Made by a program: the position numbers and the translations under genes. This document shows positions 13,680 through 14,714 of a DNA stretch of 46,261 nt, piece by piece; the stretch's first letter is position 1, and each line of letters opens with the position of its first letter. The stretch comes from Candidatus Heimdallarchaeota archaeon (GTDB taxonomy: Archaea > Asgardarchaeota > Wukongarchaeia > Wukongarchaeales > JBHIFL01). The notes below the pieces were generated by a model that saw only the letters and a list, made by a program, of their open reading frames with translations, ran no database searches and was not told the DNA's origin. The DNA lies in the NCBI GenBank assembly GCA_046761065.1, contig JBHIFL010000032.1, positions 1 to 46,261 of the forward strand, written 5' to 3'.

Positions 13680-14714
13680 GTGGAGCTGAGTAAAGAATTG
13701 GAACAGATAGGGAATATTCAAGATATTGAATTGCCATCTCGAATATATCGTGTAGACAAAACAACTAATATTCCCATACTTTCAAAGTATTTGCGTTTTG
13801 TGGGACGCGAAGGAGCAAAATCCACCATCGAAACTTATCGGATAACTCTTCGAGAATTTTTATTGTTTGTTGGTGATTGTTTCACGAAAGATACAGTTAA
13901 GCGGATTGCGCCCGAAGAAGTGGAAGATTACTTCTTATGGTTGGATACTGAACGAAAAATTCGGAAGAATACACAACGAAACAAATACTTGTATCTCCAT
14001 GCATTTTTCAATTGGTGTGTAGAACGGAACTACATTAATACAAACCCGGTACACAAAGTAAAGAAATTTGTACTCCCCTCAAAGCGTGCTATTGAAAAAG
14101 AAAAACCGAAACGTCCTTTTTTTAGTGAGTTAGAAGTTTCAAATATCCTCAAAAGTATCAAGGGGGAGGATCTCATTAGCGCGCGGGATCGGGTATTGTT
14201 ACGGTTTGGGTTTTACTGTGCTACTCGCGTGGGGGAAATAAGAGCCCTCCGGGTTGATTGCGCCTTCAAGAATCCAACTTCCCAGAGATGGTGGATCAAC
14301 TTCAGGGGGAAAGGGGATCAGCGTAGGGAACACCCCATTCCCGATCAAGTATTAACGTTTCTAAGAGAGTATCTTACACTGCGTAATCTCGATTTAGCAC
14401 CAGATCAATGTATGATGGAATGCGGTGCATGTACATCTCCATACATGTTCACAACGCGGACAGAGAAACCGTTTACTACAAACCAAGATGTGACAAGACG
14501 TTTGAAAAAATACGTGGCAGCAGCAGGACTTGACCCGGCCCGCTATGCGAGTCATAGTATGCGACGAAGTGCGATCACCTTGATGTTGAAAAAAGGTATG
14601 CCATTGAATATTATTCAGAAATTTAGTGGACATAAGGATATCACCATTCTTCAGCGTTATTTAAGAGATATGCCTTCCACAGTTGAAGAAGAACTTCCCC
14701 GTATTAATTGGTGA
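13680..14714 (+). CDS. Tyrosine recombinase/integrase (Xer-like) with N-terminal core-binding domain and a Cys-rich insertion
   Basis: Catalytic set RVGE, GKG, HSMRRS, SGH, RYL; GTG 13680 follows an AGGAGG SD. Confidence 0.95.
   Translation: MELSKELEQIGNIQDIELPSRIYRVDKTTNIPILSKYLRFVGREGAKSTIETYRITLREFLLFVGDCFTKDTVKRIAPEEVEDYFLWLDTERKIRKNTQRNKYLYLHAFFNWCVERNYINTNPVHKVKKFVLPSKRAIEKEKPKRPFFSELEVSNILKSIKGEDLISARDRVLLRFGFYCATRVGEIRALRVDCAFKNPTSQRWWINFRGKGDQRREHPIPDQVLTFLREYLTLRNLDLAPDQCMMECGACTSPYMFTTRTEKPFTTNQDVTRRLKKYVAAAGLDPARYASHSMRRSAITLMLKKGMPLNIIQKFSGHKDITILQRYLRDMPSTVEEELPRINW

What the first reader, a model, noticed from the sequence alone, without database searches (positions are those of the whole stretch)
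14385..14450. CxxxCxxC insertion inside the recombinase catalytic domain
Seen: LDLAPDQCMMECGACTSPYMF, a C-x3-C-x2-C motif just before the patch-III-like aromatic motif, plus another Cys in VDCAF. Known: Xer and lambda-family enzymes have no such motif; integron integrases carry their family-specific insertion between patches II and III; CX3CX2C is the [4Fe-4S]-ligating spacing of radical SAM enzymes. Inference: a Zn- or Fe-S-binding loop that could make recombination metal- or redox-responsive, possibly defining an undescribed subfamily.
Basis: partly seen in the sequence, partly recalled or inferred. Interest (0 to 1): 0.7.

Follow-up and report, generated by a model that had tools for sequence, protein, structure and literature searches.

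The report
Cysteine-cluster loop in orphan archaeal recombinase
An otherwise complete DNA-cutting-and-rejoining enzyme (tyrosine recombinase) of an uncultured Asgard-type archaeon has four cysteines, kept in all 11 known relatives, that look like a metal-binding site never reported for this enzyme class; whether they bind a metal, or even lie together in the fold, could not be tested here.

Summary
Gene 13680-14714 (+) encodes a 344-aa tyrosine recombinase with all catalytic residues. It carries C-x3-C-x2-C (C244/C248/C251, nt 14409-14432) just before the patch-III strand, and C194 in VDCAF.

C194, C244, C248 and C251 are invariant in all 11 family sequences (67-93% identity), with TGT/TGC synonymous changes, while residues between them vary. 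C194 replaces the box-I Asp/Asn found in 90 of 118 distant homologues, none of which has Cys there. None of the 150 nearest cluster representatives has such a triple.

The family is tiny and isolated:
- the next hit among 1.8 billion representatives is 27% identical;
- it sits on a 2.4 substitutions/site stem outside the Asgard Xer clade;
- it fails NCBIfam XerA, XerC, XerD and IntI cut-offs.

The gene is chromosomal, usually between an HrcA-CBS regulator gene and rpS3Ae. The loop occupies the alignment gap where integron integrases carry their specific insertion.

Not shown: metal binding, 3D clustering of the cysteines (no model coordinates were available; loop pLDDT 66), or any redox response. 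The radical-SAM resemblance is spacing only.

Verdict: a new variant of a known enzyme kind, most likely with a structural Cys3-4 metal site, Zn or Fe-S undecided.

The parts
13680..14714 (+). Tyrosine recombinase gene (344 aa from GTG 13680; alternative TTG start at 13674), made of a core-binding SAM-like domain and a catalytic domain
   Evidence: PF00589 88 bits and PF13495 47 bits. AlphaFold model has pLDDT 88.9, and the best Foldseek matches are XerA 5hxy, XerH, IntI 2a3v, lambda Int and Cre. The AGGAGG at 13667-13672 is also kept in L036.
14388..14450 (+). Family-specific loop plus patch-III strand, core pattern L-x-L-x-P-x-Q-C-[ML]-M-x-C-x-x-C ... [YH]-[ML]-F
   Evidence: L237, L239, P241, Q243, C244, M246, C248, C251 and F257 are invariant in 10 aligned family sequences. 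Positions 247, 249 and 250 vary, and indels are tolerated just before the loop and just after C251. The loop is coil, with pLDDT 66 for residues 241-250.
14409..14432 (+). C-x3-C-x2-C (C244, C248, C251)
   Evidence: Codons TGT, TGC, TGT. C248 and C251 show TGT/TGC switches among relatives. The motif is present in L036, L037 and L038 as well.
14259..14261 (+). C194 (the Cys of VDCAF), candidate fourth ligand, at the box-I Asp position
   Evidence: Cys in all family members. The same column in 118 distant homologues is D 74, N 16, S 7, A 6, H 5 and never C. It is followed by an invariant family-specific stretch N-P-T-S-Q-x-W-W.
14226..14660 (+). Catalytic residues R183 (14226-14228), K211 (14310-14312), H292 (14553-14555), R295 (14562-14564), H318 (14631-14633), Y327 (14658-14660)
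   Evidence: Invariant in the full-length family members and at least 97% kept in the 118 distant homologues.
13514..13573 (.). Context only: tandem 30-bp repeat, each unit an imperfect 11-6-11 palindrome, about 110 bp upstream of the gene. A link to the recombinase is not shown.
   Evidence: Two copies, found nowhere else in the 4.4-Mb assembly. Only one diverged copy in the 92%-identical relative L036. No such palindrome stands next to the gene in the seven earlier relative loci (L006, L007, L031-L035).

Best explanation
The gene encodes an active, simple (core-binding plus catalytic domain) Xer-like tyrosine recombinase. It belongs to a small orphan clade of uncultured Asgard-type archaea.

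In this clade the loop between the helix after the Lys hairpin and the patch-III strand is lengthened and carries an invariant Q-C-[ML]-M-x-C-x-x-C. I think these three thiols ligate one metal centre, most probably together with C194, which replaces the conserved box-I Asp. The metal would be a Cys3-4 Zn site or a [4Fe-4S] cluster; sequence cannot tell which. The centre would staple the loop into a fixed shape.

The loop sits where integron integrases carry the insertion that recognises their DNA substrate. The likely role is therefore to shape DNA-site or partner-subunit recognition, or simply to stabilise the domain, rather than to take part in the phosphoryl-transfer chemistry.

Shown: the sequence, the fold class, complete catalytic residues, Cys conservation, clade isolation and chromosomal synteny. 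Inferred: metal binding, C194 as a ligand, and the role of the loop.
For: - Recombinase identity: complete R-K-H-R-H-Y set and recombinase fold.
- Cys conservation: four Cys invariant in 11 sequences from separate metagenome contigs at 67-93% identity, with synonymous codon changes, while positions 247, 249 and 250 between them vary.
- C194 replaces an Asp/Asn kept in 90 of 118 distant homologues, none of which has Cys there. The substitution therefore co-occurs with the Cys loop.
- The other Cys are not specific. C113 and C180 lie at positions where distant homologues often have Cys or small/hydrophobic residues, and C180 is Asn in P0003.
- The loop is predicted as coil, not a helix, so the i, i+4, i+7 spacing is not just one face of a helix.
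- It occupies the same alignment gap as the IntI-specific insertion, which is needed for integron function and interacts with attC (PMC8138268, PMC4792948, PMC4889954).
- Three Cys within 8 residues, in a family with about 1% Cys, is not expected by chance.
Against: - Only about 11 close sequences exist, and half of all family columns are invariant anyway (165 of 328). Conservation of four Cys is therefore only modest statistical evidence.
- Spatial clustering could not be checked, because no coordinates are returned. The loop has pLDDT 66, and the family-only model failed at pLDDT 40.6.
- C-x3-C-x2-C plus a distant Cys is not a standard zinc-knuckle pattern.
- The full-text searches and the two reviews read turned up no report of a metal-binding tyrosine recombinase.
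- No similar loop was found in any solved structure by sequence.
Confidence: 0.5

Rival explanations
1. The cysteines hold an oxygen- or redox-labile [4Fe-4S] cluster (or a thiol/metal switch). Its state turns recombination on or off, making DNA rearrangement responsive to redox or metal status.
For: The C-x3-C-x2-C spacing can wrap three irons of a cubane, as established for radical-SAM enzymes. The hosts are sediment Asgard-type archaea (earlier notes of this scan), presumed anaerobes in which Fe-S proteins are common (my own background knowledge). The invariant Met246 and Gln243 next to the Cys could pack on a cluster. The M-x-C-x-x-C part also resembles the soft-metal motif of HMA/CopZ domains (my recollection).
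Against: Nothing here bears on regulation. There is no radical-SAM or ferredoxin signature: no PF04055 hit, no aromatic residue before the third Cys and no C-P. Zn explains the same data. The full-text searches and the two reviews read turned up no such tyrosine recombinase.
Confidence: 0.15
2. No metal. The cysteines are kept for other reasons: packing of a lineage-specific loop, an intramolecular disulfide pair, or simply the short evolutionary span of the family. The loop is then just a clade-specific surface feature.
For: 50% of family columns are invariant over the sampled divergence. All members are at least 67% identical, and there are no intermediate relatives. The loop is predicted with low confidence. 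Clade-specific short insertions in Xer-like enzymes are known without any metal, for example Arch1 and Arch2 (PMC8138268).
Against: Within the loop the Cys are fixed while their neighbours vary, and indels occur on both sides. A strongly conserved Asp was replaced by Cys only in this clade. Three Cys within 8 residues plus a fourth is unusual for a cytoplasmic protein of an anaerobe. Cytoplasmic disulfides are expected mainly in hyperthermophiles (my own background knowledge).
Confidence: 0.3
3. The protein is this lineage's chromosome-dimer resolvase (a functional XerA replacement), and the Cys loop is an adaptation to its own dif-like site. This concerns the enzyme's role and is compatible with any of the readings above.
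For: It is the only full-length non-IntI tyrosine recombinase found in the 91%-complete assembly. It keeps a chromosomal position, HrcA-CBS / recombinase / rpS3Ae, in 5 relatives' contigs. It has the simple two-domain architecture, and its best PDB matches are XerA and XerD. The two other genomes of the class have a canonical Xer and lack this family. Class-specific simple recombinases replacing Xer are documented (PMC8138268).
Against: It fails the XerA model (101.5 bits against a cut-off of 220), whereas the sister family's Xer passes at 256 bits. It lies outside the Asgard Xer clade on a very long stem. A canonical xerA could sit in the missing 9% of the genome. A second subgroup (P0005, P0008) lies in another context beside a MazE/AbrB-like gene, and one copy is truncated. 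No conserved dif-like site stands next to the gene.
Confidence: 0.35

Closest known systems
Archaeal XerA (Pyrococcus abyssi 4a8e, Thermoplasma acidophilum 5hxy) and bacterial XerC/XerD
   Same: Two-domain simple tyrosine recombinase with the same catalytic R-K-H-R-H-Y set. These are the best sequence and fold matches in the PDB. The gene is chromosomal with no mobile-element neighbours.
   Different: Only 20-28% identical. Scores 101-105 bits against cut-offs of 220-335 for the XerA, XerC and XerD models. Lies outside the Asgard Xer clade. Has an N-terminal extension of about 25 aa, a linker insertion and a longer beta1-beta2 turn (N-P-T-S-Q-x-W-W). Box-I Asp is changed to Cys, and the patch-III loop is about 14-16 aa longer and carries three Cys.
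Class-specific Xer-like 'simple' recombinases with short insertions (Arch1 of Halobacteria, Cyan, Cand; Smyshlyaev et al. 2021, PMC8138268)
   Same: The concept: a lineage-restricted Xer relative with a distinctive short insertion, which may stand in for Xer.
   Different: A different lineage (Asgard-type) and a different insertion. That survey does not mention cysteine or zinc at all. Membership in any of its subgroups was not tested, because its profiles are not available here.
Integron integrases (VchIntIA 2a3v) and their specific insertion near patch III
   Same: An extra segment at the same place in the catalytic domain. In IntI that segment is essential and interacts with the folded attC site (PMC8138268, PMC4792948, PMC4889954). 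2a3v is among the best fold matches.
   Different: The IntI segment is about 35 aa, helical and Cys-free; here it is shorter, predicted as coil and Cys-rich. The integron-integrase model TIGR02249 scores 47.7 bits against a cut-off of 265. Rfam scan of the window gave no hits; attC sites were not specifically searched for.
Cys-ligated metal 'staples' in other DNA enzymes (Fe-S in EndoIII/MutY, family-4 UDG, AddB/Cas4/Dna2; zinc ribbon of large serine recombinases). From my own knowledge, not tested here.
   Same: The idea of three or four Cys, some close together and one distant in sequence, pinning a DNA-facing loop or domain in an enzyme whose chemistry needs no metal.
   Different: Different folds and Cys spacings, with no homology. 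No such site was found for tyrosine recombinases in the full-text searches and two reviews consulted.

Membership tests
Tyrosine recombinase superfamily (PF00589) | Pfam catalytic-domain model above the gathering score | tested here: met
   88.4 bits against 27.1
Tyrosine recombinase superfamily (PF00589) | Catalytic R, K, H-x-x-R, H/W and Y nucleophile | tested here: met
   R183, K211, H292, R295, H318 and Y327 align with the invariant columns of 118 homologues and are invariant in the family
Tyrosine recombinase superfamily (PF00589) | Two-domain C-clamp fold | tested here: met
   AlphaFold pLDDT 88.9. Foldseek probability 1.00 to XerA, XerH, IntI, lambda Int and Cre
Archaeal XerA (NCBIfam NF040815) | Score at or above the curated equivalog cut-off | tested here: not met
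   101.5 bits against 220. The Xer of the sister family (G001) scores 256.2
Archaeal XerA (NCBIfam NF040815) | Groups with the Xer proteins of related archaea | tested here: not met
   The family forms its own clade on a 2.42 substitutions/site stem, outside the clade of 19 Asgard Xer proteins (support 92/90). Long-branch placement is uncertain
Archaeal XerA (NCBIfam NF040815) | Resolves chromosome dimers at a single-copy 11-6-11 dif site | not testable with these tools
   A unique tandem 11-6-11-like repeat lies upstream but is not conserved next to the gene in relatives
Integron integrase (TIGR02249 / IntI) | Score above the cut-off and the IntI-specific segment near patch III | tested here: not met
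   47.7 bits against 265. The segment at the same site is unrelated in sequence
Radical SAM enzymes (PF04055) | C-x3-C-x2-C | tested here: met
   C244, C248, C251
Radical SAM enzymes (PF04055) | Radical_SAM domain (partial TIM barrel) and an aromatic residue before the third Cys | tested here: not met
   No PF04055 hit. The fold is the recombinase fold. The residue before C251 is A, T, S or V
Cys3-4 metal site (Zn or Fe-S) | Three or four cysteines conserved among homologues | tested here: met
   C194, C244, C248 and C251 invariant in 11 of 11 sequences, with synonymous codon changes in the 8 examined at codon level
Cys3-4 metal site (Zn or Fe-S) | Thiols within ligand distance in the fold | not testable with these tools
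   No coordinates are returned. Loop pLDDT is 66, and the family-only model was unusable at pLDDT 40.6
Cys3-4 metal site (Zn or Fe-S) | Bound metal | not testable with these tools
   Needs purified protein

The most novel reading that the evidence does not exclude
This clade would be the first tyrosine recombinases with a built-in iron-sulfur (or other redox- or metal-sensitive) centre in the catalytic domain, so that chromosomal DNA rearrangement or dimer resolution in an Asgard archaeon is gated by redox or metal state.
Probability: 0.15. Interest if true: 0.8.

Novelty: new variant of a known kind. Interest (0 to 1): 0.45.

Why it matters
Tyrosine recombinases (Xer, Cre, lambda Int, IntI) are textbook cofactor-free enzymes. 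Two broad surveys of the family, read here, mention no cysteine, zinc or iron feature. A conserved Cys4 site at the place where integron integrases evolved their substrate-recognition insertion would be a new way of building or controlling site recognition. If it proved to be an Fe-S cluster, it would add recombinases to the list of DNA enzymes carrying such clusters. The clade may also be the only Xer-type enzyme of a poorly sampled Asgard class, so it bears on how these relatives of eukaryotes keep their chromosomes monomeric. The claim is cheap to test: express the protein, measure its metal content, and mutate four Cys.

Tried and rejected
- Cys geometry: the structure tool gives only pLDDT and secondary structure, and no model file reaches the script box. 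Distances between cysteines could not be measured.
- A second AlphaFold run with the family-only alignment failed, with pLDDT 40.6.
- The ESM Atlas search with the loop alone gave one sub-threshold hit, a recombinase-derived DUF3504 cluster at score 0.79.
- phmmer of the 31-aa loop against PDB sequences found nothing meaningful.
- A scan of GTDB genome contigs found no family member outside the own genome. Searches at order, class and phylum level (300 genomes) found only 24-31% identical Xer-like proteins.
- The idea that C113 or C180 are ligands is rejected. These columns are commonly C, L, T or S in distant homologues, and C180 is Asn in P0003.
- A helix-face explanation of the i, i+4, i+7 spacing is not supported, because the loop is predicted as coil, though at low confidence.
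- Radical-SAM membership is rejected.
- Dif-like palindromes were sought next to the gene in seven relative loci (L006, L007, L031-L035), and none is conserved.
- A common core site was sought at the rearrangement junctions, and none was found apart from one 20-nt junction duplication.
- The GC-skew profile was uninformative.
- BLASTP against the IntI-type protein of contig C94 aligned only the C-terminal box II. The positional equivalence of the two insertions therefore rests on the MAFFT alignment.

Full report
**1. What is there**

The + strand ORF 13674/13680-14714 encodes a tyrosine recombinase.
- Pfam gives Phage_integrase at 88 bits and an N-terminal SAM-like core-binding domain at 47 bits.
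- The best PDB sequence matches are Pyrococcus XerA (4a8e) and E. coli XerD.
- The likely start is GTG 13680, seven bases after an AGGAGG. This gives 344 aa, the length of the database gene call. The same start region is kept in a 92%-identical relative.
- The quoted peptide is nt 14388-14450. The three cysteines are C244 (14409-14411), C248 (14421-14423) and C251 (14430-14432). The VDCAF cysteine is C194 (14259-14261).
- The catalytic set R183, K211, H292, R295, H318 and Y327 is complete.
- An AlphaFold2 model built on a 125-sequence alignment is confident overall (pLDDT 88.9) and matches XerA, XerH, IntI, lambda Int and Cre.

**2. Is the motif conserved?**

- A word-indexed search of 5.8 billion proteins found only eight family members, 67-100% identical. 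The next hit is 27% identical.
- An exhaustive HMMER search of 1.84 billion cluster representatives found two clusters below 1e-30. It then jumped from 427 bits to 89 bits.
- A metagenome DNA scan added three loci at 92%, 79% and 68% identity.
- In all 11 sequences C113, C194, C244, C248 and C251 are invariant.
- In the 8 sequences examined at codon level, TGT/TGC switches occur at four of these five codons. The DNA has therefore diverged while the residue was held.
- The loop core reads L-x-L-x-P-x-Q-C-[ML]-M-x-C-x-x-C. Positions 247, 249 and 250 vary freely (E/Q/N/R/D, G/N/K/D/V/S, A/T/S/V).
- Indels occur just before the loop (14 aa in P0006) and just after C251 (4 aa in P0007).
- Caveat: half of all family columns are invariant (165 of 328). 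Conservation alone is only modest statistical evidence.

**3. Which cysteines are special?**

I compared the family with 118 distant homologues (22-29% identical, alignment A2).
- The column of C194 holds D 74, N 16, S 7, A 6, H 5 and never C. This is the conserved Asp of box I (L-x-x-x-D-I-D).
- The column of C113 is L 77, C 15. The column of C180 is T 54, C 24, S 21, and C180 is Asn in P0003. These two are ordinary core positions.
- None of the 150 nearest representatives has a C-x(2-4)-C-x(2-4)-C at this place. Only P0072 has several Cys in the segment (LCCRC).
- The family-specific set is therefore C194 plus C244, C248 and C251. It arose together with an invariant, family-specific beta1-beta2 turn, N-P-T-S-Q-x-W-W, right after C194.

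**4. Where the loop sits**

- The segment from the end of the helix after the Lys hairpin to F257 of patch III is 25 aa in the family. The median in distant homologues is 17, with a range of 10-28.
- Against Pyrococcus XerA and the Asgard Xer proteins it is about 14-16 aa longer. It is a lengthened loop, not an inserted domain.
- In a MAFFT alignment with canonical Xer proteins and an IntI-type integrase from the same assembly, the Cys loop and the IntI-specific segment fill the same gap.
- That IntI segment, about 35 residues near patch III, is what distinguishes integron integrases. It is essential for integron function and acts through contact with the folded attC site (PMC4889954; PMC8138268; PMC4792948).
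- By analogy, and this is inference only, the Cys loop lies where it can touch DNA or a neighbouring subunit.

**5. Could the cysteines bind a metal?**

- The model predicts the loop as coil, not helix. The i, i+4, i+7 spacing is therefore not simply one helix face. Confidence is low for residues 241-250 (pLDDT 66) and high for 251-260 (94).
- The tool returns no coordinates and no file reaches the script box. The key test, whether the four sulfurs cluster, could not be run.
- A family-only alignment gave an unusable model, pLDDT 40.6.
- The radical-SAM parallel is spacing only. There is no PF04055 hit, the fold is wrong, and no aromatic residue precedes the third Cys.
- Full-text searches for tyrosine recombinases with iron-sulfur clusters or zinc-binding cysteines returned nothing relevant.
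- Two broad surveys (Badel et al. 2021, PMC8371274; Smyshlyaev et al. 2021, PMC8138268) do not mention cysteine or zinc (the Badel review also not iron or disulfide).

My reading: a Cys3-4 metal site that staples the loop, with confidence about 0.5. Zn and [4Fe-4S] are both possible. A regulatory, redox-labile version gets about 0.15, and no metal about 0.3.

**6. What kind of recombinase is it?**

- It fails the curated NCBIfam cut-offs for XerA (101.5 against 220), XerD (105 against 330), XerC (101 against 335) and integron integrase (48 against 265). The Xer of the sister family in the same class passes XerA at 256 bits.
- In a maximum-likelihood tree the family is a 100/100 clade on a 2.42 substitutions/site stem. 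It lies outside a clade of 19 Asgard Xer proteins (92/90). Placement of such a long branch is unsafe.
- The GTDB class holds only three species genomes. The other two have a canonical 298-aa Xer in a different context and lack this family.
- None of 300 sampled genomes of the phylum has a match above 31% identity.
- In the own assembly (4.4 Mb, 91% complete, 8% contamination) the other PF00589 hits are as follows. Two are IntI-type proteins on contigs C94 and C178. These are either contaminant bacterial contigs or archaeal integrons of the kind reported in 10.1101/2022.02.06.479319 (title and abstract seen only). The third is a 112-aa C-terminal fragment on C216.
- This protein is thus the only full-length non-IntI tyrosine recombinase found in the assembly.
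- The gene is chromosomal and syntenic. The order HrcA-CBS regulator, recombinase, rpS3Ae, ArsR-type regulator recurs in L006, L032, L034 and L036. L007 has the upstream half, where the contig ends.
- A functional replacement of XerA is therefore plausible (about 0.35) but unproven.
- A subgroup (P0005, P0008), nested inside the family, lies beside a MazE/AbrB-like gene instead. P0008 is truncated before box II.

**7. Surroundings**

- Against L036 (recombinase 92% identical, DNA 81-85% identical across the blocks) the window shows four colinear blocks in the order D', B', C, A' instead of A, B, C, D.
- The L036 order is shared, as far as their contigs reach, by the more distant L006, L007 and L032. 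The window arrangement is therefore derived and recent. It needs at least two inversions.
- One breakpoint (13430 to about 13470) lies 45-85 nt upstream of the tandem 30-bp palindromic repeat in front of the recombinase gene.
- A 20-nt piece of the old C end is duplicated, inverted, at a second junction.
- I found no shared core site at the ancestral junctions.
- Three of about nine intergenic gaps were used, so a breakpoint beside the gene is not significant by itself.
- The repeat is unique in the genome. It is not conserved in the seven relative loci checked for palindromes, and L036 has only one diverged copy.
- These points belong to neighbouring findings of this scan (e1-5594033, e1-5594035). 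They do not bear on the cysteines.

**8. Verdict**

This is a new, narrowly distributed variant of a well-known enzyme kind, with a conserved four-cysteine feature that I found reported for no tyrosine recombinase. Whether it binds Zn, an Fe-S cluster or nothing needs coordinates and a protein preparation.

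Noticed in passing
window 9677-20409 versus L036 1-10740: Compared with a relative whose recombinase is 92% identical, the window has four colinear blocks rearranged: D inverted, B (HrcA-CBS) inverted, C (recombinase-rpS3Ae-ArsR) direct, A inverted. Breakpoints are at 11954-12034, 13430 to about 13470, and 17365-17391. The L036 order matches L006, L007 and L032, so the window order is derived and recent and needs at least two inversions.
   Followed up: partly
window 11954-11975 and 17352-17373: A stretch of about 20 nt from the old end of block C (ATCTTGATTTTTTTTAATAAAC) is present at two new junctions in inverted orientation. 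It is a junction duplication of unknown origin.
   Followed up: partly
window 13514-13573: Tandem 30-bp repeat, each unit an imperfect 11-6-11 palindrome (AATATAGCCGA CATTTT TCGGAATATTT). It is unique in the 4.4-Mb assembly. L036 has a single diverged copy, and no counterpart stands upstream of the gene in the seven other relative loci checked.
   Followed up: partly
L033 151-1466 and L035 763-2033: Two family members lie in a different context, downstream of a 51-aa MazE/AbrB-like gene. The L035 copy (P0008) ends early, before the H-x-x-R box, and may be a pseudogene or a sequencing frameshift.
   Followed up: no
G000 contigs C94 (L002 847-2148) and C178 (L004 1153-1926): Two integron-integrase-type recombinases in the same assembly. 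They are either contaminant bacterial contigs (8% contamination) or archaeal integrons of the kind reported in 10.1101/2022.02.06.479319.
   Followed up: no
G000 contig C216 (L005 116-454): A 112-aa ORF that is only the C-terminal box-II part of a tyrosine recombinase (PF00589 positions 106-168). It could be a gene fragment or one half of a split integrase.
   Followed up: no
L006 6398-7565 versus window 10452-11765: The NTP-transferase/hexapeptide gene is one 437-aa ORF in the window and in L036. In L006 it is called as two ORFs (167 + 212 aa) 25 nt apart. This could be a frameshift, or a short intervening sequence of the kind other notes of this scan report in this lineage.
   Followed up: no
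window 41723-44242: The H+-pyrophosphatase gene (PF03030, 754 bits) lies in a stretch with 52-58% G+C, against about 40% in the rest of the contig.
   Followed up: no
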